64,000 nt of DNA from Candidatus Hydrogenedentota bacterium. GTDB lineage: Bacteria > Hydrogenedentota > Hydrogenedentia > Hydrogenedentales > SLHB01. Positions within the stretch are counted from its first letter, which is position 1. Every line of letters begins with the position of its first letter. The stretch is from contig BTVY01000016.1 of the NCBI GenBank assembly GCA_045863335.1, positions 66,024 to 130,023 on the forward strand, written 5' to 3'. A program made the position numbers and the translations under genes. Positions 10,314 through 24,235 of the stretch are shown piece after piece. The notes under the pieces were generated by a model that saw only the letters and a list, made by a program, of their open reading frames with translations, was not told where the DNA came from and made no database searches.

Positions 10314-11885
10314 ATGTTCAATCTTGCAGTGATCCTCGAGAATAGCGCGCGCGCCTATCCGGACAAAGAGGCGGTGACGTTCAACCACTTCCGCCTGACT
10401 TTTAAGATGATCGACGACCTGGCGAATCAGGTTGCGAACGGGTTGCGTGCCGCCGGGATACGCAAGGGCGACAAGGTCGCGTTCTCCTGCCCGAACATCC
10501 CCTACTTCCCAATCGTGTACTTCGGGATATTGAAAGCCGGGGCGGTGTTCGTGCCGTTGAACGTGTTGCTGCGCGAGCGCGAAGTGGCGTACCACCTCTC
10601 CGACTCCGACAGCGTCGCGTTCATCTGTTTTGAGGGTCGGGAAGAGCTTCCGATCGGCAAGATTGGATACGCCGGATTCCAGGAAGCCCAGTCCTGCGAT
10701 CACTTCTGGATCATTCCGACGATTCCCGGCGGCGACTCCCCCATCGAGGGAGTGCCGACGCTTGCGGATCTCATGCACGACCAGCCCACAACCTGCGACA
10801 CGGTCCAGTGCAGGGCCGACGACACGTGCATCATCATCTACACCTCCGGCACGACAGGCCGTCCCAAGGGGGCGGAACTGACGCACTCCAACATCCTGAT
10901 GAACTGCATGTCCACGCGGCGGCTCATTAAGGGCGGGCCGGACGACGTCGCGCTGGCGGTGCTGCCCCTGTTTCATTCCTTCGGTTTGACAGGATTGCTG
11001 AATTCGGCGGTGTTGAACGGGAGTCGTCTCGTGCTCGTGCCACGCTTCGAACCGGCGGAGGTTCTTCGCGCGTTTCAGGAGGAGAACGTCACCTTGTTCG
11101 CAGGCGTGCCGACCATGTATTGGGAACTGCTGCATTTCGCCGATCTCGACAAGTATGACCTGAAGAAGATCGCCGAGAACTGGCGCCTCGGCGTTTCCGG
11201 CGGCGCCGCCATGCCCGTCGATTTGATGAGGCAGTTCCAGGAGAAGTTCCAAATCCGAATTCTCGAAGGGTACGGATTGTCCGAGACGTCGCCGACGGCG
11301 TCGTTCAGCCGCGAGGACATGCCCCAAAAGGTTGGTTCCATCGGAGTGCCCATCTGGGGCGTGGAAATGATGGTGGTCGATCCCGACATGAACGAGGTGC
11401 CGCGTGGCGAGACCGGTGAGATCGTCATTCGTGGTCACAACGTGATGAAGGGGTACTATAAGCACGACGAGGCGAACGAGGAAGCTTTTCGCGGCGGATG
11501 GTTCCACACTGGCGACATTGGATATCAGGATGAAGACGGCTACTTCTTCATCGTAGACCGCATCAAGGATATGATCATTCGCGGCGGATTCAATGTGTAT
11601 CCGCGCGAGATCGAAGAAGTGCTCATGATGCACCCCGACATTACGCTGGCAGCCGTGATCGGTGTGCCGAATGAAGAACACGGCGAAGAGATCAAAGCCT
11701 TCGTGATTCCCAGGAAAGGATCATCCCTGACGGCCGAGGAGGTCATCGCTTTCAGCAAGAAAGAGATGGCTGGGTATAAGTATCCGCGCATGGTGGAACT
11801 GTGCGAAAACCTTCCCATAGGGCCGACCGGGAAAGTGCTGAAAACGGAGTTGCGGAAGAAACAGAATACGGTCGCGAACGTGTGA
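10314..11885 (+). CDS. Long-chain fatty-acid--CoA ligase (AMP-binding), copy 1
   Basis: YTSGTTGRPKG, EGYGLSET, GWFHTGD, PTGKVLK. Confidence 0.93.
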   Translation: MFNLAVILENSARAYPDKEAVTFNHFRLTFKMIDDLANQVANGLRAAGIRKGDKVAFSCPNIPYFPIVYFGILKAGAVFVPLNVLLREREVAYHLSDSDSVAFICFEGREELPIGKIGYAGFQEAQSCDHFWIIPTIPGGDSPIEGVPTLADLMHDQPTTCDTVQCRADDTCIIIYTSGTTGRPKGAELTHSNILMNCMSTRRLIKGGPDDVALAVLPLFHSFGLTGLLNSAVLNGSRLVLVPRFEPAEVLRAFQEENVTLFAGVPTMYWELLHFADLDKYDLKKIAENWRLGVSGGAAMPVDLMRQFQEKFQIRILEGYGLSETSPTASFSREDMPQKVGSIGVPIWGVEMMVVDPDMNEVPRGETGEIVIRGHNVMKGYYKHDEANEEAFRGGWFHTGDIGYQDEDGYFFIVDRIKDMIIRGGFNVYPREIEEVLMMHPDITLAAVIGVPNEEHGEEIKAFVIPRKGSSLTAEEVIAFSKKEMAGYKYPRMVELCENLPIGPTGKVLKTELRKKQNTVANV

Positions 11886-11921
11886 TGACCGGCGATACAC
11901 GGCAAGGAGCGTAAGAAACAC

Positions 11922-13496
11922 ATGCTGAACGTGGCTACTCTCTTGGAAAACAGCGCCCGGGAACATCCCGACAAGCTGGCGATCGTGTTCGGCGGGCACA
12001 TCCGTTTGACCTATCGTCAAGTGGACGAAATGGCGAATCAGGTCGCGAACGGTTTGAAGGCATCTGGGGTCCGCAAGGGCGACAAGATCGCGGTGACCTG
12101 TCCGAACATTCCCTACTTTCCGATTCTCTCATACGGGATCATGAAAGCGGGCGCGGTTCTGGTTCCGTTGAACGTGCTGCTGAAACGGCGGGAGAGCGCC
12201 TACCATCTCTCCGACTCGGAAGCCGTGGGGTACATCTGTTTCCAGGGCACGGACCAGTTGCCCATCGCGGAAGAAGGCTACGCGGGGTTTCAGGACGCCA
12301 AAACCTGCGACCATTTCTGGATCATTCCGACGATTCCGGGCGCCGACTCGCCCATCCAAGGCGTACCTACGCTCATGGATCTCATGCACAATCAGCCCCA
12401 CACCTGCGACCCGGCCGCGACGCGTCCCGACGACACCTGCGTCATCATCTATACTTCGGGCACCACTGGTCGTCCGAAAGGGGCGGAGTTAACCCATTCG
12501 AATATCACCATAAACGCGATGGTCACCCGCGAAATGTGCGGGAGCACGCCGGATGAAGTGATGCTGGTCGTGCTGCCCCTGTTCCACTCGTTCGGCTTTA
12601 CGTGCCTGATGCAGACCGGCATCCTTGCCGCGGCGACGCTCGTGCTGTTGCCTCGATTCGAGCCCGCCGCCGTCTTCGCCGCGCTCCAGGATGAAAACGT
12701 GACGCTGTTCGCCGGTGTTCCCACCATGTATTGGGATCTCCTGAACTATCCCGACGCCAGCCGTTACGATTTGGACAAGATTGCAAAGACCCTTCGGCTT
12801 TGCACGTCGGGCGGCGCGGCCATGCCGGTGGAAGTCATGAAGAAGTTCGAGGAGAAGTTTCACGTGCCCATCCTGGAGGGATACGGGCTGTCCGAAACAT
12901 CACCGGTGGCGAGCTTCAATCAATTGCCCAAACCACGCAAACCCGGTTCCATCGGATTTCCCGTGTGGGGCGTGGAGATGATGGTGGTCGATCACGATAT
13001 GAATGAGTTGCCCGTGGGCGAAACGGGGGAGATTGTCATCCGCGGTCACAACATCATGAAAGGGTACTACAAGCGGGACGAGGCGAATGACGAGGCGTTC
13101 CGGGGCGGATGGTTCCATTCCGGCGATCTCGGGTACAAAGACGAAGACGGGTACTTCTATATTGTCGATCGATCCAAAGACATGATTATCCGCGGCGGAT
13201 TCAACGTGTATCCGCGTGAAGTTGAAGAAGTGCTGATGACGCATCCCGACATCTCCCTCGCGGCCGTCATCGGAGTTCCTCACGACGAGTATGGGGAAGA
13301 GGTCATGGCCTACGTGATCCCCGAACTTGGATCGACCATCTCGCCGGAAGATATTATTGCGTGGAGCAAAAAGGAGATGGCGGGGTACAAGTACCCGCGC
13401 ACGGTGCAGATTGTGAAGACGCTGCCCATGGGGCCGACGGGGAAGATTCTCAAAACCGAACTCCGGAAGATGGCTACGGAGCCCGCCGCAAAGTAA
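11922..13496 (+). CDS. Long-chain fatty-acid--CoA ligase (AMP-binding), copy 2
   Basis: Same motifs as copy 1; close tandem paralog. Confidence 0.93.
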   Translation: MLNVATLLENSAREHPDKLAIVFGGHIRLTYRQVDEMANQVANGLKASGVRKGDKIAVTCPNIPYFPILSYGIMKAGAVLVPLNVLLKRRESAYHLSDSEAVGYICFQGTDQLPIAEEGYAGFQDAKTCDHFWIIPTIPGADSPIQGVPTLMDLMHNQPHTCDPAATRPDDTCVIIYTSGTTGRPKGAELTHSNITINAMVTREMCGSTPDEVMLVVLPLFHSFGFTCLMQTGILAAATLVLLPRFEPAAVFAALQDENVTLFAGVPTMYWDLLNYPDASRYDLDKIAKTLRLCTSGGAAMPVEVMKKFEEKFHVPILEGYGLSETSPVASFNQLPKPRKPGSIGFPVWGVEMMVVDHDMNELPVGETGEIVIRGHNIMKGYYKRDEANDEAFRGGWFHSGDLGYKDEDGYFYIVDRSKDMIIRGGFNVYPREVEEVLMTHPDISLAAVIGVPHDEYGEEVMAYVIPELGSTISPEDIIAWSKKEMAGYKYPRTVQIVKTLPMGPTGKILKTELRKMATEPAAK

Positions 13497-13520
13497 CACG
13501 CCATCCTGGGGGGAAAGAGC

Positions 13521-14768
13521 ATGGCTGGCATACCTTCGTATCGCGAGCGGATGGCGTGGTTTCACGAAGCCCGATTCGGGATGTTTATCCATTGGGGGCT
13601 CTATTCGCTGTTGGGACGTGGCGAGTGGGTCATGCTCGAAGAGCGCATCCCTACAGTGGAGTACGCCAAGCTTGCGGGGGAGTTCGCGCCGAAGAAGTTC
13701 GACGCCCACGCATGGGCGGACCTGGCAGTACAGGCGGGCGCGAAGTACGCCGTGCTGACGACACGTCATCACGATGGGTTCTGCCTGTATGACAGCGAGG
13801 TGTCCGACTTTACCTCGGTGAAGACCGCAGCGAAGCGCGATTTCGTGGCGGAGTACGTGGATGCCTTTCGGCGTGCCGGCCTGAAGATAGGTTTCTACTA
13901 TTCCCTGTTGGACTGGCGCTTTCCCGGTTATTGGAATCCGCGCAAGCATAAGGAATGCGCGGACGCCATGGTCGAGCAATACCATGCCCAGGTGCGCGAA
14001 CTCATGTCGAACTACGGGCGAATCGACGTCTTGTGGTACGACGGCCACTGGATCGACGGCGTGAAAAATCTGGGACGGTTCTGGCGCGCGCGTGAAATCA
14101 ACGCGTGGGTGTGCGAAAAGCAGCCCCACATCCTCATCAACAACCGCTCCGGGGTGGACGAAGATCTCGACACGCCGGAACAGCACGTCACTGCGTCGAA
14201 ACCGGGCCGCGGGTGGGAATCGTGCATGACCATAGGTGATTCCTGCGGCTGGGGCTACATCCGCAACAACCCGAACATGAAAAGCGAGACGCAGCTCCTG
14301 CAGCATCTGGTCACCGCCGCCGCGGGCGAAGGGAACTTTCTCGTGAACGTGGGCCCGAAGCCGGACGGCACCATTCGCAAGTCGGAGCGCCGCCGGATGC
14401 GGGCCATTGGAAAATGGCTGCGCGGCAACGGCGAGGCGATCTATGGATCGCAACGGTGCGCGCTTAAGAACGGCATGCTCGGTCTATGGACCGCGAAGGG
14501 CAAGACGGCCTACCTCTGCGTGTTTCGCTGGCCGGGGCGTGAAGCGGTCGTACCCTTGGTCGGTACAAAAGTGCGGTCTGCGACCCTGCTGAACACCGGT
14601 GAACCGGTGGAGCACCGCATCGAAGAAAACGGCCGGCTTGTATTGAGCGGACTTCCCAAAAAACCACCACACCTCTCCGTCTCCGTGATTAAGGTCGAGT
14701 TCGCATCCAAACCCAAATGCCTGGAAGAAACTGACCGCGCCGCGTGGCTCGAGGGAAAGGCGACGTAG
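13521..14768 (+). CDS. Alpha-L-fucosidase (GH29), no signal peptide
   Basis: WFHEARFGMFIHWG, TTRHHDGF, YYSLLDW, LWYDG, NVGP. Confidence 0.92.
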   Translation: MAGIPSYRERMAWFHEARFGMFIHWGLYSLLGRGEWVMLEERIPTVEYAKLAGEFAPKKFDAHAWADLAVQAGAKYAVLTTRHHDGFCLYDSEVSDFTSVKTAAKRDFVAEYVDAFRRAGLKIGFYYSLLDWRFPGYWNPRKHKECADAMVEQYHAQVRELMSNYGRIDVLWYDGHWIDGVKNLGRFWRAREINAWVCEKQPHILINNRSGVDEDLDTPEQHVTASKPGRGWESCMTIGDSCGWGYIRNNPNMKSETQLLQHLVTAAAGEGNFLVNVGPKPDGTIRKSERRRMRAIGKWLRGNGEAIYGSQRCALKNGMLGLWTAKGKTAYLCVFRWPGREAVVPLVGTKVRSATLLNTGEPVEHRIEENGRLVLSGLPKKPPHLSVSVIKVEFASKPKCLEETDRAAWLEGKAT

Positions 14769-15861: not shown

Positions 15862-16839
15862 CTACTCGTTCAGGTACTGGGCGACTTCCCGCAGCACATC
15901 CGCGCGACCGGCCCAAGGTTTATAGATTGCGCGCATGGTAAGCGAATACGTCTCTCCGACTTTCCAATCCGGAATCACCAGTTGAAAGTCCCAGGCGGGA
16001 TTCGTGTCGTCGCCGGCCTCCGTCTGCGTGCCGCCGCTGGGTGAGTGGGCGAATCGAAGATAGGGGTTTGGTTTGAACACGTAGATCAACACCATGTCGC
16101 GAACCCGCCCATAGTAGAAGGGGACGGAATACCGCAACGGCGACAGGGAATTGAAGAGCGTGTCCGCTTTAGGCGGGTAGCTCAAATCCGTCTGATCCGT
16201 ACTGGGAAGGACGGTGCTGTTGAGTCCGTGGACTTGTGTGCAGAACTGGACCCAGAACGGTTCATCCAGCGTGGATTCCCCCTGCAGGAAGTAGATGCTC
16301 TTGTCCAGGGGCTCGTTGATATACGAGGCCCAGAATACCCCCATGAATCCGCCCTCAAACGCTGGCTCGTGCGGAATGCAGCGAAACGCCATGTCGATGT
16401 AGTAGGGGTCCTTGACCTCGAACGTGGTCCAACTCTCTACCCCGTAGTGAGGCGTCGGTGGTTGATAGAGTTCCGCCGTCCGCTCGTCGATCCGACGGAA
16501 CTCCATGGGCACGCGCCGCGGCTCGAAGAAGACATTCATGTCTTCACTGCGGGGGCGCGCGTCGAAATAGTGTTCGAGGTTCAGCCCCGCATAGCGCACA
16601 ACATACGGCGACACCGGCTCATTCGGCGATCGCATGCGGAACACGCCGTTGTACCCTTCGCGATGCTCGCCGACCGCCGCGTTGTTGCCAATCGTGCAGA
16701 CCAGCTTCGATGCGCGGAACTCGGCAAAGTCCATGGACGGGCTCGCTTCCTTGGTCGTTGCGCATCCCACGACAACCACGACGGCACCTACCGCCACGGC
16801 AACGCGGGCTAGGGAGGCAGGTGTCGATCGCGTTACCAT
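15862..16839 (-). CDS. Hypothetical lipoprotein
   Basis: ATG at 16839 overlaps the upstream stop codon. Hydrophobic signal ending in VVG-C (lipobox-like); body rich in aromatic residues and likely beta strands. Confidence 0.7.
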   Translation of the reverse strand: MVTRSTPASLARVAVAVGAVVVVVGCATTKEASPSMDFAEFRASKLVCTIGNNAAVGEHREGYNGVFRMRSPNEPVSPYVVRYAGLNLEHYFDARPRSEDMNVFFEPRRVPMEFRRIDERTAELYQPPTPHYGVESWTTFEVKDPYYIDMAFRCIPHEPAFEGGFMGVFWASYINEPLDKSIYFLQGESTLDEPFWVQFCTQVHGLNSTVLPSTDQTDLSYPPKADTLFNSLSPLRYSVPFYYGRVRDMVLIYVFKPNPYLRFAHSPSGGTQTEAGDDTNPAWDFQLVIPDWKVGETYSLTMRAIYKPWAGRADVLREVAQYLNE

Positions 16840-18155
16840 TGCGCGGGGACAGCCATCTGCTCGTCCGGCGTGGGCAGGGGTTTGATTCGGATGTTGCGGT
16901 ACATTACGGAATCGTTGTGTTCCGTCAACACGATGAACCCGCGGGGCAGCCGGACTTTCAACTCGTCGTGCTCGTACAGGTTTCGATCCTGCACCACCGT
17001 GCCGTTGAGCACATACCTTAACTGAGAGCCGTTCAGCGTCACTTCCGAAACGTTCCATTCGCCTAGTGGCTTGACCGCATTGACCGATGGCGCCTCCACA
17101 TCATAGATGGAGCCGGTGCTGTTCTTGTCCGGTTCATTCCCATAGTCGCCAAGCATCTGGTATTCCATGCCGATTCGCGACGCGCGAGCGGAACGCGGGG
17201 CGCGCAAATGCACACCGTTGTTGCCGCCTTTGGGCAGCGTCCATTCCCAGCGCAGGACAAAATTGCCGTACCGATCGATCGTGCGAAGCCCGCGCGATCC
17301 GCCGGAGACGCGCTCGAGTATACCGTCGTGGACCTGCCAGGCTGCCTGGCTGTCTCCGAGGACGGTCCAGCCGTTAAGGGTTTTCCCGTCGAACAGCGCG
17401 ATCCAGCCTTCTGCCGCTTCGGCGGGCGTCAGAACGGAATTGTCGGGCGTCCAGGAATAGTTCTCCGCGGGAAGCACGTTTGCGAGGTCGAGCAGTTCGT
17501 AATACTCGTCGTATTGGGGAAGAATGAAGTGGGCTTGCTCAACAAGCGCGGGCGGCAGTGCGCCGAGCAGCAGCGCCGGCCTATCCGCGGCGGCCTCAGG
17601 ATCGGATACGATCTGAACGTCGCCGCCTTCCGGAGACACGAGCATGAGCCCCGGCGCCCTCCGATGAATTTCCCGAGCGAGTCGCGCGGAGTCGGGTCCT
17701 TCGAGTAGATAGACCAGATCCTGGTCTTTGCGGAACTCCTTGGCGATCGTCTTTGCGGCCTGGATTCGCGCTTTTTCCGTTTTGGGGGCATAGGGACCGA
17801 ACACGCGAACCACGCCGACCATGCCTCGGCCCGAACCGATATCGCGAATCTGGCGCACAGCGTCGGCCGCTTCCTTCGAAATACTCCTTCCATCTTCGCT
17901 GACTCCGTAGAGGTCGAAGCAGGGCGCCGGGGCCCCCACGTCGGCGGCCCGGTTCATGCCCCGGTAAACGTCTGCGATCGGAGCGCCCGGTTTGGCGAGA
18001 TCGGGAACGTAAATCGACCGAATCGTATACTCGCTGGAGCCTCGCTTTACGACGCCATTGTCAACGCGAAATTCGTTATCCGCTGATGCGGTCGCCGCCA
18101 GTACGATGAACGCCGCCATCGTACGCGAAATCTGTAGAATGCTTCCGGAATTCAC
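16833..18155 (-). CDS. Secreted DUF1080 (3-keto-glycoside hydrolase-like) domain protein
   Basis: GWIALFDGKTLNGW, GNNGV, EYQMLG, TGSIYD, GEWN, YRNIRIK. GTG start at 18155 behind GAGGAG. Confidence 0.85.
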   Translation of the reverse strand: MNSGSILQISRTMAAFIVLAATASADNEFRVDNGVVKRGSSEYTIRSIYVPDLAKPGAPIADVYRGMNRAADVGAPAPCFDLYGVSEDGRSISKEAADAVRQIRDIGSGRGMVGVVRVFGPYAPKTEKARIQAAKTIAKEFRKDQDLVYLLEGPDSARLAREIHRRAPGLMLVSPEGGDVQIVSDPEAAADRPALLLGALPPALVEQAHFILPQYDEYYELLDLANVLPAENYSWTPDNSVLTPAEAAEGWIALFDGKTLNGWTVLGDSQAAWQVHDGILERVSGGSRGLRTIDRYGNFVLRWEWTLPKGGNNGVHLRAPRSARASRIGMEYQMLGDYGNEPDKNSTGSIYDVEAPSVNAVKPLGEWNVSEVTLNGSQLRYVLNGTVVQDRNLYEHDELKVRLPRGFIVLTEHNDSVMYRNIRIKPLPTPDEQMAVPAQW

Positions 18156-18312
18156 TGTCTCACTCCTCGCGGTTGGTTCGGTCAAGAATAATGCGAGAAG
18201 CACTGTAGCAAATTCACTTCGCAAGCCGCTAACCGCTCCGGATCGTTGAACGTATGCGTCCGCTGGCGTATCATTCGGAGGTCTGGGCTACGAACTACGG
18301 ATCGAGGTTAAT

Positions 18313-19941
18313 ATGAAATGGATGATTCCCGTGCTGGCGCTGATTGCGTCCGCCGCCGTTATGGGTCAGGAGAGCCCCTCCGAGGCTTCCCCGGAGAATG
18401 AGGCTTCGGATACGGATGAGGTCTATACCCGGGATACGCTGCTGGAGGGATCGAATGCGATCCTGGACTCCATGGAAGCCGTCGAAAACTTCCTGGCAAC
18501 GCAGACCGATTCCGCGGAAGAGCTGTCGGGCGACCCCGTGACGCTCACCGCGCGGCGATGCGTGGAGCTGGCGTTGTCGCAAAACGCGCAAGTCGCGGTT
18601 GCCCAGGACGATGTGGTGGCGGCACAATCGAAGATTGGCCAGGCCCAGTCGCAGATGAAACCGCAACTGAAGGCCTCCATGACGTTCACCCACACGGAAC
18701 TGAATACCAAAGATTTCTCGTCCGGGTCGGGTGGGCTTGGCGGGGGGCTCGGCGGGGGCCTTGGCGGCGGTCTTCTTGGCGGAAGCTTGCTCGGTGGCGG
18801 CCTCCTGGGAGGTAGTCTACTCAGCGGTGGCGGGGGTGGAATTACCGATAGCCTCGGCCTCGAACCCGAAGACGATTTCCGGATGGACAAGGTCGAGTTA
18901 AATCAGGTCCTCTATGCGGGCGGTCAGATTCGCGCGGCCATCAACGCGGCGAAGTACCTGGCGGAATCGCAGGAGTGGCAGAAGGCCGCGACCCTGGCGC
19001 AGCTCGAGTATCAGGCCAAACAGGCGTTTTACGACGCCGCCGCCAGCGAGGCGCTGGTGAGCGTGGCCGAGGCGAGTGTGAAGTCCTTCGAGCGCAACCT
19101 GTCTGACGCGCAGGAGATGTTCGACGTTGGCATGGTCAGCAGCTTTGAGGTGTTGCGCTCGCAAACGGAATTGGGAAGCCGCCAGGCAAGTCTGGTCGAG
19201 GCGCGAAACATTCAGCGCCTGGCCCATGCGAATCTGCGCCGGATCATCGCGGTGCCTCAGAACACGCCGCTTGTGCTGGAGCCCAAGCTGGACTATCTGC
19301 CCTATACGCCGGATATCGACGAATTGGTCACCCACGCCGAAGAACACCGCCCTGAGATTCAATCGCTGAAGAAAGGTATCGAGGCCGCAAAGGCGGACGT
19401 TGAACGGGTCCGCGGCCAGTACAAGCCCCAGGCTGGCGCGAATATCCAGTGGCAGAACGTCGACAACGGCGGATTCTCGCAGCCGGACGGCTGGACCTTC
19501 AGCGTCGCGGGTCAGTGGGACATCTACCAGGGCGGCAAGCGTAAGCACGAACTCGTGGAATCCAAGGCGCGGTTGCAGAGCCTCGAAGATCAGTTGCGCG
19601 ACCTCGAGGCGCTGATTGAGCTGGACATCACACAGGCCTACATTCAGATCAAAGACTCCATGGCGCGCATTGTGAGTGAGAATGGCACCCGCGAACTCGC
19701 CCAGGAAGGCTTGCGCCTTTCCGAGTTACGGTTCCAGGAGGGCGTCGGAACCCAATCCGAAACCCTCGATGCGGAGCTGGCGCTGACGAATGCGGAGCGT
19801 TCACTTGTGCAAGCGCTGCGCGACCTCGCCGTCGCCAACGCCGCGTTGGAGCGCGCTATCGGCAAGAGCTGGGAACATATCGCGCCGGAGACCGCCGAGC
19901 CTGCGGAGCCGGAAGAGAGCAGCGCCGAGCCCGGTCAGTGA
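18313..19941 (+). CDS. TolC-family outer-membrane protein with Gly/Leu-rich insertion
   Basis: Signal peptide; CVELALSQN, LNQVLYAGG, EHRPE, RFQEGVGTQSETLDAE. Confidence 0.9.
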   Translation: MKWMIPVLALIASAAVMGQESPSEASPENEASDTDEVYTRDTLLEGSNAILDSMEAVENFLATQTDSAEELSGDPVTLTARRCVELALSQNAQVAVAQDDVVAAQSKIGQAQSQMKPQLKASMTFTHTELNTKDFSSGSGGLGGGLGGGLGGGLLGGSLLGGGLLGGSLLSGGGGGITDSLGLEPEDDFRMDKVELNQVLYAGGQIRAAINAAKYLAESQEWQKAATLAQLEYQAKQAFYDAAASEALVSVAEASVKSFERNLSDAQEMFDVGMVSSFEVLRSQTELGSRQASLVEARNIQRLAHANLRRIIAVPQNTPLVLEPKLDYLPYTPDIDELVTHAEEHRPEIQSLKKGIEAAKADVERVRGQYKPQAGANIQWQNVDNGGFSQPDGWTFSVAGQWDIYQGGKRKHELVESKARLQSLEDQLRDLEALIELDITQAYIQIKDSMARIVSENGTRELAQEGLRLSELRFQEGVGTQSETLDAELALTNAERSLVQALRDLAVANAALERAIGKSWEHIAPETAEPAEPEESSAEPGQ

Positions 19942-20216
19942 GTCTTCCCGCAGGTAACCTTGCGAGATTCGTCGATTAGTAGGGCGGGGCGGCTGCTCAG
20001 CCCCGTCACAAGGTACGCCCGTCACATCCCCCACAGATGAAATATCGAAGAGTGTACGTTTTTCGTGCTTTTCGACTTCCGTGTTTTTTTGGTTCTGTTC
20101 AGACGCCAGCTCCCCTTTCGATCAATCCTTCCTTAAATAGCTGATATTTCTGTATTTATGCAATGTGATTCACGCGCGAAAACCGGCCTGATGCAGATTC
20201 GAGGCTTGGCGACGGC

Positions 20217-20245
20217 TTGACAAGGGGCCGATAACGGGCTAGAAT
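20217..20245 (+). promoter_or_regulatory. Sigma70 promoter of the tetR-rnk cluster
   Basis: TTGACA (20217-20222), 17-nt spacer, TAGAAT (20240-20245). Confidence 0.85.
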
Positions 20246-20258
20246 GAGTGTGGATTCA

Positions 20259-20280
20259 AAAATGAATTTCAATTCATTTT
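20259..20280. promoter_or_regulatory. Palindromic operator, likely TetR autoregulatory site
   Basis: AAAATGAATT-tc-AATTCATTTT, a perfect 10-bp inverted repeat between the -10 box and the RBS. Confidence 0.75.
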
Positions 20281-20294
20281 CGTGAGGAACTCCC

Positions 20295-21368
20295 ATGACG
20301 ATATTCAGCAAAGAGGGGAAAGTGCATACCACGAAACGACGTCAACGCGTCGATGCGGCGATCCTGGATGCGGCTGAGCTGGTGTTCACACAAAAGGGAT
20401 ATCAGCAGGCGACGATGGACGCCGTCGCGCGCGAGGCCGGCATCTCCGTGGGGACGCTGTACAACCTGTTCAAGAGCAAGGAGGACATCTACGGGCAGGT
20501 CGCGCTGCGCGTCGGGGAAGTCGTGCTTCGGCGTCTCGATCCACTGGCGCGCGCGAGCGACCCGGAAGCGGCCGTACTCGACCTCATCCGGCTTCGTTTG
20601 CACAACTACACGAACGACCGTCTGTTCTTTCAGCCTTTCTGCTTCCCGGCCTATCTGGGAGTGCAACCGGAACCGTCGCGTCTTGGCCCTGAAGTGAACC
20701 GGCTTCACGAGCACTACGTGGATCTTGTTGAGCGAATATTCCGCCGGTGCCTCGCGAAAGTGGGACAACCGGGCACCCCGGATATCAAGATGGCGGTCTG
20801 CCTGGAAGGGATGTTGAATGTATTCATGGGGTACTGGTCCGAGCCGTTGCAGTCCGACAATCTGGCCAAAGTAGCGCGTCACATGAAGACCGTGCTGCTT
20901 CGCGGGGTAGCCCCGGCGATCGACACTTCCGAAAGTGACGCGGAAGTGGCTACCTCCCGGGCGCTCTACATCAGCCGCTATGACTTGGAACGGCTGACGG
21001 AACTAATCGAGGTCGTGCGTGACTTCGGGAAGAGGGAGAACCAGAAGTACGCCGACAATCTCGACGACGTATTGAAGCATGCGCGCGTGACCAGTCCGCG
21101 AGAAGTGCCGCCGGACGTCGTCACGATGAATTCCAAAGTACGCGTGGTCAATCGGAATACGGGCACGGAGCATGTGTACGCGCTGGTCTTTCCGCGCAGC
21201 GCCGAATCGGCGCCGGAGAACATTTCCATTCTGAATCCGCTTGGGACCGCATTGCTGGGGCGGCGGCTGGGGGATGTGTTCACGGTCGGGGCCGACGAGA
21301 CGGCCCCCGTCTATGAGATCACACAGATGCTGTATCAGCCGGAGGCGTCAGGTGATTACCACTTGTAG
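20295..21368 (+). CDS. TetR-family regulator fused to a C-terminal Rnk (GreA/GreB C-domain) module
   Basis: N-terminal TetR HTH: ILDAAELVFTQKGYQQATMDAVAREAGISVGTLYNLFKSKEDI. C-terminal Rnk signature: YISRYDLERL..PPDVVTMNS..LVFP..ISILNPLGTALLG..YQPEASGDYHL. Confidence 0.9.
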   Translation: MTIFSKEGKVHTTKRRQRVDAAILDAAELVFTQKGYQQATMDAVAREAGISVGTLYNLFKSKEDIYGQVALRVGEVVLRRLDPLARASDPEAAVLDLIRLRLHNYTNDRLFFQPFCFPAYLGVQPEPSRLGPEVNRLHEHYVDLVERIFRRCLAKVGQPGTPDIKMAVCLEGMLNVFMGYWSEPLQSDNLAKVARHMKTVLLRGVAPAIDTSESDAEVATSRALYISRYDLERLTELIEVVRDFGKRENQKYADNLDDVLKHARVTSPREVPPDVVTMNSKVRVVNRNTGTEHVYALVFPRSAESAPENISILNPLGTALLGRRLGDVFTVGADETAPVYEITQMLYQPEASGDYHL

Positions 21369-21411
21369 ATTACGTTCGCACAGGCAGCGCGACGCGAAAA
21401 GGAGTGGCGTG

Positions 21412-21831
21412 ATGGAGAAGCAAATCGTGATTACAGCGCTTGACAGGCACCGTATTCTGGACTGCCTGTATGTTCTAAACGAGTTTCCAGAGAAGCGGAG
21501 TTTGCCGCACATTCAACGCCTCGAGGACGAGGTCAAGCATGCTACGGTGATCTTGGATCCCATTTACATGCCGGCGGACGTCATTACGATGCGTTCCCGG
21601 GCGAAGTTGAGAAGCCCCGCAACCCAGGAGGCAGTGGAATGGACGCTGGTGTATCCGGCGGAAGGCGATATGGCATGCGGCAGAGTCTCCATACTTTCCC
21701 CGATTGGCTCGGCCATGATCGGCTGCAAGGTGGGGGATTCCTTCGAAGCGGATGTGGCCGGCGGGCGAAACGAGTTTGTTGTTGAAGCGATAACATATCA
21801 GCCCGAAGCGACGGGTGAGCAGTATGTATAG
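21412..21831 (+). CDS. rnk: Rnk-family protein (paralog 2)
   Basis: IVITALDRHRI, PADVITMRS, LVYP, VSILSPIGSAMIG, YQPEATG. GGAG RBS. Confidence 0.88.
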   Translation: MEKQIVITALDRHRILDCLYVLNEFPEKRSLPHIQRLEDEVKHATVILDPIYMPADVITMRSRAKLRSPATQEAVEWTLVYPAEGDMACGRVSILSPIGSAMIGCKVGDSFEADVAGGRNEFVVEAITYQPEATGEQYV

Positions 21832-22092
21832 TTGCGCATATTCGCGAGTACTTCTGCTATCCCAATAGTCGCGGACGTATTCCGGGGATAGAGCGAACGA
21901 AGAAATGGCACCCGGCGGCCGGTAACGCGCGGAGCGTGTTGCGGAGCGCCGGGGTTTGCAGCGAAACCGATCGCGGCGTGGTTGCAGATCTTGGAGAATG
22001 AGACTCCCTGACCACAATCCGCGTCCGACAAGCCAGTAGAATGGCGCGGCTCGCGCACGCGAAGCCGTCGCCGCGTCAAATGGAGAAATCCC

Positions 22093-22515
22093 ATGAGCAA
22101 AAAGAACGCCGTGATAAGTGAATTTGACAAGGCCCGCCTGCAGGAGGTGATCGACTCGATTCGGGCGCAAAGCAGCGACAACCGCCCGTGGTCGATGGGC
22201 GATAAACTCCAGGAGAGGCTGACCACGTCCGAGGCGCTGGACCCTAAAGACATCCCCGCGGATACCGTAACGATGAACTCCATCGTGCGGGTACGAGATC
22301 TCGATACGGACAAGGTCGGGGTGTACAACCTGGTATTCCCTTCGGACAGCAAGCCTCTCGAGGGGCGGATCTCCGTGCTTTCCTCCCTTGGCATCGCGCT
22401 GTTCGGTTCTCGCATCGGCGCCGTGGTCGAATGGGAGACACCGAAGGCGCACAAGAATCTGGAGATTGTGGGAATCATCTACCAGCCGGAAGCGGCGCAG
22501 CATTGGACGCTCTGA
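22093..22515 (+). CDS. rnk: Rnk-family protein (paralog 3)
   Basis: VISEFDKARL, PADTVTMNS, LVFP, ISVLSSLGIALFG, YQPEAA. GGAG RBS. Confidence 0.88.
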   Translation: MSKKNAVISEFDKARLQEVIDSIRAQSSDNRPWSMGDKLQERLTTSEALDPKDIPADTVTMNSIVRVRDLDTDKVGVYNLVFPSDSKPLEGRISVLSSLGIALFGSRIGAVVEWETPKAHKNLEIVGIIYQPEAAQHWTL

Positions 22516-22641
22516 GAATCGCGCGTGGACCGTGCAATGAGAGGCGCGGCATTCGCGCGTTCAATGCCAGGTTTGCGGTTCTCGATGGGCATAGGAATTG
22601 GATTGGTATTGGCTGCGCGATTCGCGGCATGAGAGGTTGTA

Positions 22642-23193
22642 ATGACTACGGGACTGTTGTTGACGGGCGTACTTGTCTTCCTGGCGCGAATCGTCGATGT
22701 CGCCTTGGGCACGCTTCGGACCTTGATGACCGTGCAGGGCCGCATTCTCATGGCAGCCAGTCTGGGCATCGTGGAGGTCATCGTCTGGATTCTCGTGGTC
22801 AGCGCGGTCGTAAGTCAGATCAGAGAGACGCCCGCGTTGATTCTGTTCTACGCTTTTGGTTTCGCCAGTGGCAATGTGATTGGCATCCTGGTCGAATCGA
22901 AACTCGCGTTGGGAAATGTCGCGCTCAAGGTCATTTCGACTCAAGCAGGGCCGTCCCTGGCCGAACGGCTTCGGTCGATTGGCCAGCCGGTGACGGTGTT
23001 CACGGGAATGGGCATGAGTGGTCCCGTCCATCAGCTGTTCATGATATGCCGGCGGAAAGATCTGGGCCGGCTGCTCGACGTTGTCAAGGGCGTGGACGCT
23101 AACGCGTTCGTTGTTACGGAGATGATCAAGGACGTCAACAAGTTGCTGAACCCGATCCAGGTTCCGGTCGCGAAGTCGCAGATAACCCCGTAA
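22642..23193 (+). CDS. UPF0316 / DUF2179-DUF5698 membrane protein
   Basis: FLARIVDVALGTLR, GIVEVIVW, YAFGFASGNVIG, C-terminal G.G..G and DANAFV. Confidence 0.85.
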   Translation: MTTGLLLTGVLVFLARIVDVALGTLRTLMTVQGRILMAASLGIVEVIVWILVVSAVVSQIRETPALILFYAFGFASGNVIGILVESKLALGNVALKVISTQAGPSLAERLRSIGQPVTVFTGMGMSGPVHQLFMICRRKDLGRLLDVVKGVDANAFVVTEMIKDVNKLLNPIQVPVAKSQITP

Positions 23194-23347
23194 CTCGCGC
23201 GTCAACGTGCGCGAACGCATCCTCGCGACGCTTAAGCGTTCCGGGCGGTGGAGAAGGATGTTCGCGAGAAGGAATCCACGTCCACCGGAGCGCGTTTACG
23301 GATCACTTCTCGCCGCGGTACGATGAAACGAGGGGAACGATCTGCGG

Positions 23348-24235
23348 CTACCGTGTGTGGTGTGGAGGATCGCACGTCAAGCAGGCCGATCCGTCAGGGA
23401 ATACGGTCTTGAACGCGAACCGGCCGGACGCGGGATCGAGTTCAATGAGCTTGGCGCCTTTGGGGAGCCGGTCGGCGCCGTAGCCGCCGTGGCCGGTGGC
23501 GCGGCCGTAGGTCAGGATGATCCCTTCCTCTTCAAACCAGAAGTCGTTCACGTGGCTGTGGCCGACGAAGCAGGCGCGGATCGTGCCGGTATCGCGGATC
23601 GCGTCGAACCGGTCGGCGCTGTTTCCCCAGTACAACACCTCTTCCTGGGCGATGCCGTGCACGGTCCCCGCGAGCCGGGCGCGCTCGTATTGCTCAAGAG
23701 GAATATGAAAGAACGCAATGGCCGGGGTGCGTTCGCCGCGCTCCAGCACGATGCGTTCGGACTCCGTGCGTAGCCAACGCAGGTCCTGGGGCCAAAGCCC
23801 TTCGCGGTGGGAGTTCAGGAAGTAGAGGTCCCACGCGGGACGCCCTTCACATTTGATACCGACACGAAAATTGCCCCGCCCGTCTCCTTTCGGCATACAG
23901 GCGTTCTGCGACGCGGCAATGCGCGCCGCGTCAAACTCAAGTTGGTTCACGTAGTCGTGATTGCCCCACGTGAAGGCCCAGGGCGCGCCGAGGGTGCCGA
24001 GGAAACTCAGATCCCGGTCCATCAAATCCCGTCCCCGATCGGGCTTATCGTCACCACACCAGATGTCGCCCGTTACCGCGAGGAAGCCGGGTTGCCAGTG
24101 CTGAACGAGGGCGCGGATATCCGCATAGGTGCGCGCCGCCGCATCGTCGCCCGTGTCGTTGTGGAAGTCCGTCAGTTGGAGTATGCGGAAGTCCCGGTCC
24201 GTGCGGGCTTGGATGCTCCCGTTCGTTTCGCTCAT
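23348..24235 (-). CDS. Calcineurin-like metallophosphoesterase
   Basis: LQLTDFH, VTGD, WGNHD, FFHIP, GHSHVND. Confidence 0.9.
   Translation of the reverse strand: MSETNGSIQARTDRDFRILQLTDFHNDTGDDAAARTYADIRALVQHWQPGFLAVTGDIWCGDDKPDRGRDLMDRDLSFLGTLGAPWAFTWGNHDYVNQLEFDAARIAASQNACMPKGDGRGNFRVGIKCEGRPAWDLYFLNSHREGLWPQDLRWLRTESERIVLERGERTPAIAFFHIPLEQYERARLAGTVHGIAQEEVLYWGNSADRFDAIRDTGTIRACFVGHSHVNDFWFEEEGIILTYGRATGHGGYGADRLPKGAKLIELDPASGRFAFKTVFPDGSACLTCDPPHHTR

What the first reader, a model, noticed from the sequence alone, without database searches (positions are those of the whole stretch)
20217..23193. TetR-Rnk fusion heading a three-Rnk cluster: candidate DNA-tethered RNA-polymerase secondary-channel regulator
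Seen: a full TetR (HTH plus ligand domain) joined by a short acidic linker (APAIDTSESDAEVA) to a complete Rnk domain in one uninterrupted ORF. Two more divergent free-standing Rnk genes and a DUF2179-type membrane protein follow on the same strand. Known: E. coli Rnk is a Gre-family protein with a short coiled coil that binds the RNAP secondary-channel rim and competes with GreA/GreB/DksA, and it usually occurs as a single stand-alone gene. Inference: fusion to a sequence-specific, ligand-sensing DNA-binding dimer could confine anti-Gre or RNAP-modulating activity to chosen promoters, with the free paralogs acting as partners or competitors. I do not know of a described TetR-Rnk fusion.
Basis: partly seen in the sequence, partly recalled or inferred. 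Interest (0 to 1): 0.88.

Follow-up and report, generated by a model that had tools for sequence, protein, structure and literature searches.

The report
Self-repressing TetR–Rnk fusion operon
A DNA-binding repressor is permanently fused to a small protein of the kind that docks on RNA polymerase, it appears to switch off only its own operon of similar proteins, and this conserved but unstudied arrangement offers a handle on what such polymerase-docking proteins do.

Summary
Window 20295-21368 (+) is one open frame of 357 aa with a full TetR regulator, a 17-residue disordered linker and a complete Rnk domain. Two free Rnk genes and a DUF5698/DUF2179 membrane gene follow behind a single strong promoter.

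The fusion is no artefact. Contigs from three other studies bridge the junction. About 100 protein clusters share the architecture, mostly Hydrogenedentota with some PVC-labelled MAGs. Both domains show dN/dS of 0.05-0.15, and the fused Rnk domains form one clade.

New here: in 21 of 25 loci two tandem palindromes (ATGAAT-N4-ATTCAT) start inside the -10 box of the fusion's own promoter. In this genome the paired site occurs only at the two paralogous fusion operons, which hold all six Rnk-type domains. Other single-site matches are no more frequent than chance.

The TetR part therefore looks like an autorepressor that sets Rnk dosage, not a tether to many promoters. RNA polymerase binding by the Rnk domain is inferred from homology only (38% identity to E. 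coli Rnk, with all family-wide conserved positions kept). My paper searches found no description of this architecture.

Verdict: a new variant of known kinds, of moderate to high interest.

The parts
20217..20245 (+). Sigma-70-type promoter: -35 TTGACA (20217-20222), 17-bp spacer, -10 TAGAAT (20240-20245).
   Evidence: 11 of 12 consensus matches. It is the only strong promoter-like site in 19800-23500 (sequence). The same -35/-10 layout precedes the fusion gene in the related loci.
20244..20259 (.). Operator O1: a 16-bp palindrome of type ATGAAT-N4-ATTCAT that overlaps the last two bases of the -10 box and the predicted transcription start.
   Evidence: 19.1 bits on the family PWM. The position is conserved in the related loci.
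20262..20277 (.). Operator O2: a second 16-bp palindrome starting 18 bp after O1. In the window it is the core of a 22-bp palindrome at 20259-20280.
   Evidence: 25.4 bits, the best site in the whole genome. Pairs of sites 18-19 bp apart occur only at the two fusion promoters of this genome.
20284..20289 (+). Ribosome-binding site GAGGAA, 5 nt before the ATG at 20295.
   Evidence: Read from the sequence.
20295..20909 (+). TetR-family part of the fusion (residues 1-205): HTH at residues 23-67, then an all-helical ligand-binding and dimerisation domain.
   Evidence: Pfam TetR_N 57 bits. The model has helices 9-203 at pLDDT above 85. Foldseek matches DarR, FadR, PfmR and KstR2 at TM about 0.66-0.74 normalised to the target. 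dN/dS is 0.06-0.15.
20910..20960 (+). Flexible acidic linker (residues 206-222).
   Evidence: pLDDT below 50. Across 97 homologs it shows 21% mean identity and a length of 14-28 residues.
20961..21368 (+). Rnk domain of the fusion (residues 223-357, plus the stop codon): a short two-helix coiled coil (228-244, 247-261) and a Gre-type C-terminal globular domain.
   Evidence: PDB 3bmb (E. coli Rnk) matches at E 1e-17 by sequence and TM 0.84 with 38% identity by fold. Pfam GreA_GreB C scores 56 bits. All 19 universal Rnk positions are kept. dN/dS is 0.05-0.11.
21412..21831 (+). Rnk2, a free-standing Rnk paralog of 139 aa. It groups with the ordinary Rnk of Hydrogenedentota genomes that lack the fusion.
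   Evidence: It is 29% identical to the fused Rnk domain.
22093..22515 (+). Rnk3, a free-standing Rnk paralog of 140 aa that belongs to a divergent clade.
   Evidence: It is 37% identical to the fused Rnk domain.
22642..23193 (+). DUF5698 + DUF2179 membrane protein (183 aa), the last gene of the probable operon.
   Evidence: Pfam and NCBIfam PRK04164. No terminator-like site lies between the four genes. The gene recurs downstream of the fusion in L021, L023, L024, L034, L035 and L041.

Best explanation
This is a self-repressing TetR-family regulator with an ordinary Rnk module built into it. It heads an operon of further Rnk paralogs.

Shown here:
- The architecture is conserved and of single origin.
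- Both halves are under purifying selection.
- A conserved pair of palindromic operators starts inside the -10 box of its own sigma-70-type promoter and reaches about +25.
- In this genome that paired site exists only at the two paralogous fusion operons, which together hold all six Rnk-type domains of the organism.

Inferred:
- TetR dimers, probably a pair of dimers, occupy O1 and O2 and shut off the promoter, so the DNA-binding half sets the dose of the whole Rnk set rather than aiming Rnk at other promoters.
- Repression is lifted when the TetR half binds a ligand (unknown; its nearest structural relatives bind acyl-CoA or cyclic nucleotides), when the Rnk half is captured by RNA polymerase, or both.
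- The released fusion and the co-transcribed free Rnks then occupy the rim of the polymerase secondary channel. There they compete with the single GreA and the single DksA-like protein, as E. coli Rnk does in vitro.
For: Architecture and conservation:
- 98 of the first 102 rows carry both PF00440 and PF01272, down to 34% identity.
- The full-length fusion is in 13 of 41 related genomes, and in one more it is split at contig ends.
- It also occurs in MAGs labelled Planctomycetota, Lentisphaerota and Omnitrophota.
- dN/dS is 0.05-0.15 for both domains. The linker is variable, at 14-28 aa.
- The fused Rnk domains form one clade (UFBoot 99, aLRT 98, 100% of 200 bootstrap trees).

Operators:
- The pair score exceeds the null maximum of 15 (284 random windows) in 13 of 14 loci and 8 of 11 further loci. 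The pair always lies directly after the -10 box.
- A genome-wide PWM scan gives paired sites only at C16 (the window) and C52 (the paralog).
- Single sites are not enriched over Markov simulations.

Operon structure: one strong promoter and no terminator-like site between the genes.

Rnk identity:
- 3bmb matches at E 1e-17 by sequence and TM 0.84 by fold.
- The coiled coil is short, with helices of 17 and 15 residues.
- 19 universal Rnk positions are kept in fused, adjacent and generic Rnks alike.

Inventory: 7 GreA_GreB C-terminal domains in the genome. One is GreA; the other six lie in the two fusion operons. There is one DksA/TraR-type protein.

[quoted passage not shown] Gre globular domains bind the beta-prime rim helices (passages of PMC7527559).
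Against: - No binding was measured. DNA binding is inferred from conserved palindromes, and polymerase binding from homology only.
- The operator scan uses a motif learned from the same promoters, so weaker or different sites at other promoters would be missed.
- 4 of 25 loci score at or below the null maximum.
- 6 of 25 loci have no adjacent free Rnk, so the operon content is not fixed.
- 0 of 74 free-standing rnk loci have a TetR gene directly upstream. There is therefore no unfused precedent for TetR control of rnk.
- RNA-library contigs cover the operon but also the intergenic DNA upstream, so transcription from this promoter is not shown.
- The window protein is below the curated cut-offs of Pfam Rnk_N and of the NCBIfam Rnk equivalog.
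Confidence: 0.5

Rival explanations
1. Cis-acting tether, the first reader's idea narrowed to the sites actually found. The operator-bound fusion reaches RNA polymerase at its own promoter through the 14-28-residue linker and plugs the secondary-channel rim. It thereby traps or poises the enzyme, or denies Gre-assisted escape past the repressor bound at +10 to +25.
For: - O2 lies just downstream of the start site, where a bound protein acts as a roadblock.
- Linker length is kept within 14-28 residues although its sequence is free to vary.
- A second DNA-binding family, an OmpR-type response regulator, is also found fused to Rnk (P0103).
- The model's pTM of 0.79 is high for two domains joined by a disordered linker.
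Against: - O1 overlaps the -10 box, so an occupied operator should exclude polymerase rather than hold it.
- Only self-promoters carry the site.
- Rnk is also fused to non-DNA-binding partners such as GNAT acetyltransferases, so DNA tethering is not a general theme for this domain.
Confidence: 0.2
2. The Rnk module does not act on RNA polymerase in this family. It is a partner-binding or sensor domain, for example for the co-encoded free Rnks or another protein, and it modulates the TetR half.
For: - The function of Rnk is unknown even in E. coli, and its deletion has no phenotype (PMC4598747).
- A free Rnk is adjacent in 19 of 25 loci, which would fit a protein pair.
- The window protein falls below the curated Rnk equivalog cut-off.
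Against: - The fused domain keeps all 19 positions that are universal among ordinary Rnks, and only one position (V240) is specific to the fusion clade. Nothing points to a changed surface.
- The adjacent free Rnks come from at least three different Rnk lineages, which fits a shared common target better than a co-evolved pair.
Confidence: 0.15
3. The fusion is an assembly or gene-calling artefact, or a decaying gene.
For: None found.
Against: - Independent contigs of three other studies bridge the junction.
- About 100 clusters from many assemblies share the architecture.
- dN/dS is 0.05-0.15.
- A second copy at 81% identity lies in the same genome.
Confidence: 0.01

Closest known systems
E. 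coli Rnk (PDB 3bmb) and the Rnk-like protein of Nitrosomonas europaea (PDB 2pn0)
   Same: The fused domain has a short N-terminal coiled coil plus a Gre-type C-terminal globular domain. It is 38% identical to 3bmb with TM 0.84. It shares the family-wide conserved positions.
   Different: Here the domain is covalently joined to a TetR regulator and sits in an operon with two further Rnk paralogs. E. coli Rnk is a stand-alone protein. The window protein scores 97 bits against the 109-bit NCBIfam equivalog cut-off.
Autoregulated TetR-family repressors that bind DNA as pairs of dimers. DarR is the solved example among the fold hits (PDB 8svd, whose title reads 'dimer-of-dimers DNA binding'). QacR is recalled from memory, not from a call.
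   Same: It has a TetR_N HTH and a nine-helix ligand domain, and palindromic operators overlap its own promoter. The two operators lie 18-19 bp apart.
   Different: It carries an extra folded C-terminal domain from a polymerase-binding family. No adjacent efflux or catabolic target gene is conserved. The ligand is unknown.
Gre-family anti-cleavage factors Gfh1 and Rv3788
   Same: They share the Gre-type C-terminal domain and the proposed competition for the secondary channel (PDB hits 2etn, 2f23 and 3aoi; review PMC4598747).
   Different: Gfh1 has a full-length coiled coil that reaches the active site. Here the helices are only 17 and 15 residues long, and no GreA_GreB_N match is found outside the true GreA.
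Other Rnk fusions present in sequence databases: GNAT acetyltransferase-Rnk, OmpR-type response regulator-Rnk, and an unknown 235-aa domain joined to Rnk
   Same: Rnk serves as a C-terminal module attached to another function.
   Different: The N-terminal partners differ. These proteins were seen only as protein records, and their genomic context was not examined.

Membership tests
TetR family of regulators (TFR) | N-terminal TetR-type helix-turn-helix | tested here: met
   Pfam TetR_N at residues 23-67, 57 bits against a cut-off of 24. HTH residues are nearly invariant in 97 homologs.
TetR family of regulators (TFR) | All-helical C-terminal ligand-binding and dimerisation domain | tested here: met
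   The model has helices 9-203. Foldseek matches DarR, FadR, PfmR and KstR2 with probability 1.00 and TM 0.66-0.74 normalised to the target.
TetR family of regulators (TFR) | Palindromic operator, typically at its own or a neighbouring promoter | tested here: met
   Paired ATGAAT-N4-ATTCAT palindromes lie directly after the -10 box in 21 of 25 loci, above the null. Binding itself was not measured.
TetR family of regulators (TFR) | Small-molecule ligand releases the protein from DNA | not testable with these tools
   The only hint is conserved pocket-region residues R101, R109, L110, F111, F115, P125, Y141 and G172.
Rnk (regulator of nucleoside diphosphate kinase; Gre-family secondary-channel binder) | Gre-type C-terminal globular domain | tested here: met
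   Pfam GreA_GreB at residues 272-344, 56 bits against a cut-off of 26.9.
Rnk (regulator of nucleoside diphosphate kinase; Gre-family secondary-channel binder) | Short N-terminal coiled coil (Rnk_N), about half the Gre length | tested here: met
   The model has helices 228-244 and 247-261. The fold match to 3bmb has TM 0.84 over 136 columns. The Pfam Rnk_N score of 19.7 bits is below the 23.7 cut-off for the window protein, but many homologs carry a precomputed PF14760 hit.
Rnk (regulator of nucleoside diphosphate kinase; Gre-family secondary-channel binder) | Passes the curated equivalog model (NCBIfam NF004396) | tested here: not met
   The fusion scores 97 bits and Rnk2 and Rnk3 score 92 bits each, against a cut-off of 109. 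All three are Rnk-like, not certified equivalogs.
Rnk (regulator of nucleoside diphosphate kinase; Gre-family secondary-channel binder) | Binds RNA polymerase at the beta-prime rim helices and competes with GreA, GreB and DksA | not testable with these tools
   Known for E. coli Rnk (passages of PMC4598747).
GreA/GreB transcript cleavage factors | Long N-terminal coiled coil (GreA_GreB_N) with acidic tip residues | tested here: not met
   The only GreA_GreB_N match in the genome is at C31, the true GreA. The fusion's coiled coil has helices of 17 and 15 residues.

The most novel reading that the evidence does not exclude
The fusion is a titration sensor for free secondary-channel sites on RNA polymerase. 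It would work like ribosomal proteins that repress their own mRNA only once the rRNA sites are filled.

The Rnk half binds polymerase by preference. While unoccupied polymerase is available the fusion is held away from its operators, and the operon runs. Once the fusion and the co-transcribed free Rnks, which compete for the same site, have filled the polymerase pool, surplus fusion binds O1 and O2 and shuts the operon off.

This would explain four observations:
- The only DNA target is its own promoter.
- Free Rnk genes ride in the same transcript.
- Those free Rnks may come from different Rnk lineages.
- Sensor and repressor must be one polypeptide.
Probability: 0.2. Interest if true: 0.8.

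Novelty: new variant of a known kind. Interest (0 to 1): 0.62.

Why it matters
According to the 2015 review I read in passages (PMC4598747), Rnk is known to bind RNA polymerase but has no known function, and my later search turned up nothing newer by title.

This lineage gives a natural experiment. Every Rnk-type gene of the organism sits behind a promoter that a TetR-Rnk fusion appears to repress. The arrangement has been kept under selection across Hydrogenedentota and some PVC-group genomes.

It gives the field three things:
- A defined operator, promoter and protein set that can be rebuilt in E. coli or in vitro.
- A testable link between occupancy of the polymerase secondary channel and gene control.
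- If the titration or tether reading holds, a new way for a repressor to read the state of RNA polymerase itself.

Tried and rejected
Complex prediction. I sent the Rnk domain (A1 residues 216-357) with the organism's own beta-prime rim-helix fragment (residues 600-760 of the C34 open frame, alignment A2 of 30 rows). One search returned 'no answer' (score 0.00, controls not run). This is evidence neither for nor against binding.

Wider regulon. An exact-motif scan found 16 sites against about 5 expected from base composition alone. The PWM scan gave some high single sites (C21:70431, C70:3050, C4:69424, C52:19839). Most lie inside long ORFs. Counts at every threshold fall within five 3rd-order Markov simulations. 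I rejected these as evidence for more targets.

Trans control of unlinked rnk genes. Four free rnk genes in fusion-bearing genomes and one in a genome without the fusion gave pair scores of 11-13, within the null.

Unfused tetR-rnk precursor. None of 74 free rnk loci has a TetR gene directly upstream. Two have one elsewhere within 3 kb. Six of these loci had flanks of only 1.5 kb.

Conserved neighbourhood. Apart from the free Rnk and, in 7 loci, the DUF2179 gene, no neighbouring gene family is shared beyond close relatives. The longest-ORF filter in that call kept some antisense ORFs.

The 261-bp spacer between Rnk2 and Rnk3 shows no trace of the NTP_transferase gene present at that place in the paralogous operon. 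No Rfam family was found in 19800-23400; the one chance-level hit has E 0.1.

RNA evidence. Contigs of RNA libraries X4 and X10 cover most of the operon. They also cover DNA upstream of the promoter (X4), and contigs cannot show starts, so expression is not claimed. Parts without cover are not interpreted.

Literature. Searches (TetR + Rnk, 11 papers; 6 papers listed) returned nothing on a fusion, judged from titles and abstract starts only. One search returned 0 papers. One search was useless because 'grea' matched 'great'. One search found no new Rnk function by title. One search (DUF2179, 6 papers) gave nothing functional by title. Lamour et al. 2008 is not held and is cited only through the review. 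Supplementary files were not consulted.

Full report
What is there. On the + strand of the window lie an outer-membrane efflux protein gene (18313-19941) and a 353-bp intergenic region. After these come four close-set genes: a 357-aa ORF (20295-21368), two small ORFs (21412-21831 and 22093-22515) and a 183-aa ORF (22642-23193).

Pfam finds three domains in the first ORF: TetR_N (residues 23-67, 57 bits), GreA_GreB C-terminal (272-344, 56 bits) and a sub-threshold Rnk_N (222-258). The two small ORFs each have GreA_GreB C-terminal, and the last ORF has DUF5698 plus DUF2179. The NCBIfam Rnk model is the best hit for all three Rnk-type sequences, at 97, 92 and 92 bits. All are below its equivalog cut-off of 109.

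Against solved structures, the C-terminal part matches E. coli Rnk (3bmb, E 1e-17) and the Nitrosomonas Rnk-like protein 2pn0. The N-terminal part matches many TetR regulators.

An AlphaFold model built on 97 homologs has mean pLDDT 89 and pTM 0.79. It shows a nine-helix TetR domain (9-203), a disordered stretch (pLDDT below 50 at 206-214 and 217-219), two short helices (228-244, 247-261) and a small beta-rich domain. Foldseek places the Rnk part on 3bmb (TM 0.84, 38% identity). It places the TetR part nearest to DarR, several FadR proteins, PfmR and KstR2. The only corrections are that 20217 is the promoter's -35 box and that Rnk2 starts at 21412.

It is not an artefact. Contigs from runs of three studies other than the possible source bridge the TetR-Rnk junction (X2 20452-21005, X3 20755-21866, X4 20619-21169). 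A protein search returned 153 hits. Of the first 102 rows, 98 carry both PF00440 and PF01272 at lengths of about 340-380 aa, down to 34% identity. Where a source names them, the names are Candidatus Hydrogenedentes, 'TetR family transcriptional regulator', 'GreA/GreB family elongation factor' or 'regulator of nucleoside diphosphate kinase'.

Among 41 genomes of the same order, including the window's own, 13 hold a full-length copy and one more has it split at contig ends. The window's genome has a second copy at 81% identity on contig C52. A scan of one genome per species also found it in MAGs labelled Planctomycetota, Lentisphaerota and Omnitrophota at 35-39% identity. One contig labelled Bathyarchaeia carries it at 65% identity, and I take that to be a mis-binned bacterial contig.

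Between the window and six orthologs, dN/dS is 0.06-0.15 for the TetR part and 0.05-0.11 for the Rnk part wherever dS is not saturated. Across 97 homologs the two domains keep 49-57% identity to the window protein. The linker keeps 21% identity but stays 14-28 residues long. In a maximum-likelihood tree of 70 Rnk domains, the 22 fused ones lie on one side of a branch (UFBoot 99, aLRT 98, 100% of 200 bootstrap trees). This fits a single origin (the quick version is).

The new element is a conserved double operator on its own promoter. The only strong sigma-70-like promoter in 19800-23500 is TTGACA-17-TAGAAT at 20217-20245 (11 of 12 matches). No terminator-like site lies between the four genes. 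Directly after the -10 box, and overlapping its last two bases, come two 16-bp palindromes of type ATGAAT-N4-ATTCAT at 20244-20259 and 20262-20277. The ribosome-binding site and the ATG follow.

The same layout of -35, -10, palindrome 1 and palindrome 2 (18-19 bp later) stands before the fusion gene in the related loci. I scored matches to the 12 specified consensus letters of both sites, out of 24. By that score, 13 of 14 loci and 8 of 11 further loci exceed 15, the maximum seen in 284 random 370-nt windows of the same loci. I left out L038 because it is the same contig as L029. With a start site about 7 nt after the -10 box, the two sites cover roughly -9 to +7 and +10 to +25. That is the position of a classical autorepressor.

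Only its own promoters carry this site. I built a weight matrix from the 12 sites of the six closest loci and scanned all 6.75 Mb of the window's genome. Two sites 17-20 bp apart occur only at C16 (the window) and at C52 (the paralogous operon). For every other site in the top 45, the best partner scores 1.0 bit or less. The best single sites elsewhere lie mostly inside long ORFs. Their number at each threshold (for example 13 at 17 bits or more, four of which are the training sites) is within the range of five 3rd-order Markov simulations (11-25).

Four free rnk genes that lie elsewhere in other fusion-bearing genomes have no such pair upstream. The detectable DNA target is the fusion's own promoter.

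What travels with it. A free Rnk gene follows the fusion directly in 19 of 25 distinct loci. These adjacent Rnks are not recent copies of the fused domain, and they fall in at least three other clades. The window's Rnk2 groups with the ordinary Rnk of Hydrogenedentota genomes that lack the fusion. Rnk3 belongs to a divergent clade.

The DUF5698/DUF2179 gene follows in 7 loci, including one distant locus, L041. Nothing else is conserved around the fusion beyond close relatives. None of 74 free-standing rnk loci has a TetR gene directly upstream.

In the window's genome there are seven GreA_GreB C-terminal domains. One belongs to the true GreA, which is the only GreA_GreB_N match. The other six all lie in the two fusion-headed operons. 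There is one DksA/TraR-type zinc-finger protein.

State of the Rnk domain. In an alignment of 22 fused, 19 adjacent and 29 generic Rnk domains, 19 positions are conserved in all three groups. Examples are D230, R233, L256, P272, T277, M278, S280, P300, G317, G322, Q348 and P349 of the window protein. Only one position (V240) is conserved in the fused clade alone. The fused domain thus looks like a standard Rnk with its ancestral surface intact.

According to the review PMC4598747 (passages read):
- Its coiled coil is too short to reach the active site.
- Its deletion has no phenotype.
- Its function is unknown.

Gre globular domains bind the beta-prime rim helices (PMC7527559, passages). Polymerase binding by the proteins of this window is inferred from these facts and was not shown here.

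How it most likely works. I commit to this reading at about 0.5. The TetR half is an autorepressor that sits on O1 and O2, probably as two dimers, and sets the dose of the whole Rnk set. When it comes off, the fusion and the free Rnks are made together and occupy the secondary-channel rim of RNA polymerase in competition with GreA and the DksA-like protein.

What takes it off the DNA is open. One candidate is a small ligand. The pocket region is conserved, and the nearest folds bind acyl-CoA or cyclic nucleotides; both are leads only. The bolder candidate is capture of the Rnk half by polymerase itself. That would make the fusion a titration sensor of free secondary-channel sites. It would explain why the only target is the fusion's own promoter and why competing free Rnks share the transcript.

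The rivals are:
- A cis tether at its own promoter (0.2).
- A non-polymerase role for the Rnk half (0.15).
- An artefact (0.01, refuted).

Comparison with what is known, and novelty. Both halves belong to well-known families, and the sequences sit in public databases under automatic names. My searches found no paper that describes a TetR-Rnk fusion. One search returned 11 papers and one search listed 6, none relevant by title or abstract start. One search returned none. These searches cover only the held library.

Rnk also occurs fused to an OmpR-type response regulator, to GNAT acetyltransferases and to an unknown 235-aa domain. It therefore behaves as a portable module. I rate the finding a new variant of known kinds. 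The conserved self-operator, the restriction of all Rnk genes to such operons, and the possible feedback through polymerase make it more than a curiosity. The mechanism remains inferred.

Limits:
- The operator motif was learned from the promoters it is then found at.
- The loci are related to one another, so the counts are not independent.
- The complex prediction gave no verdict (see Tried and rejected).
- Contigs cannot show transcript ends.
- Lamour et al. 2008 could not be read.
- No supplementary files were seen.

Noticed in passing
Own genome, contig C52:27144-31700 (locus L021:7145-11652): A second, paralogous operon has the same double operator, a fusion at 81% identity, Rnk2-type and Rnk3-type genes and a DUF2179 gene. 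An extra NTP_transferase (nucleotidyl transferase) gene sits between the two free Rnks. The same insertion is present in L023.
   Followed up: partly
Proteins P0103, P0106-P0111, P0114 and P0121-P0138: Other Rnk fusions exist in public data: an OmpR-type response regulator (REC + Trans_reg_C) + Rnk, an unknown N-terminal domain of about 235 aa + Rnk, AlaDh_PNT_N + a Gre-type C domain, and 18 clusters of GNAT acetyltransferase + Rnk. Rnk may be a general module that brings other functions to RNA polymerase.
   Followed up: partly
L041:5140-5937 and L053:1683-2324: A DUF5698/DUF2179 membrane protein gene also lies near Rnk genes in distant lineages: downstream of a fusion at 38% identity, and upstream of a free Rnk in a Desulfobacterales MAG. 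This hints at a link between Rnk and this uncharacterised membrane family.
   Followed up: no
window 18313-19941 (+): An orphan TolC-like outer-membrane efflux protein (Pfam OEP) has a long Gly/Leu-rich low-complexity insert and no adjacent pump genes. It lies upstream of the fusion only in same-genus loci (L022, L033).
   Followed up: no
L036 (record labelled Candidatus Bathyarchaeia archaeon): A contig in an archaeal-labelled MAG carries a fusion 65% identical to the window's, with the bacterial-type promoter and operators. It is probably a mis-binned Hydrogenedentota contig.
   Followed up: no
window 11010-14768 and 16833-18224: Two AMP-binding (acyl-CoA-synthetase-like) genes, an alpha-L-fucosidase and a 3-keto-disaccharide hydrolase domain protein lie upstream. 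The acyl-activating enzymes are of passing interest because the nearest folds of the TetR half bind acyl-CoA, but they are 7 kb away and are shared with only two other loci (L022 and L028).
   Followed up: no
Model mb8771e04b369: The pTM of 0.79 is high for two domains joined by a disordered linker, which may mean that the Rnk domain is predicted to pack against the TetR domain. The predicted aligned error was not available to check this.
   Followed up: no
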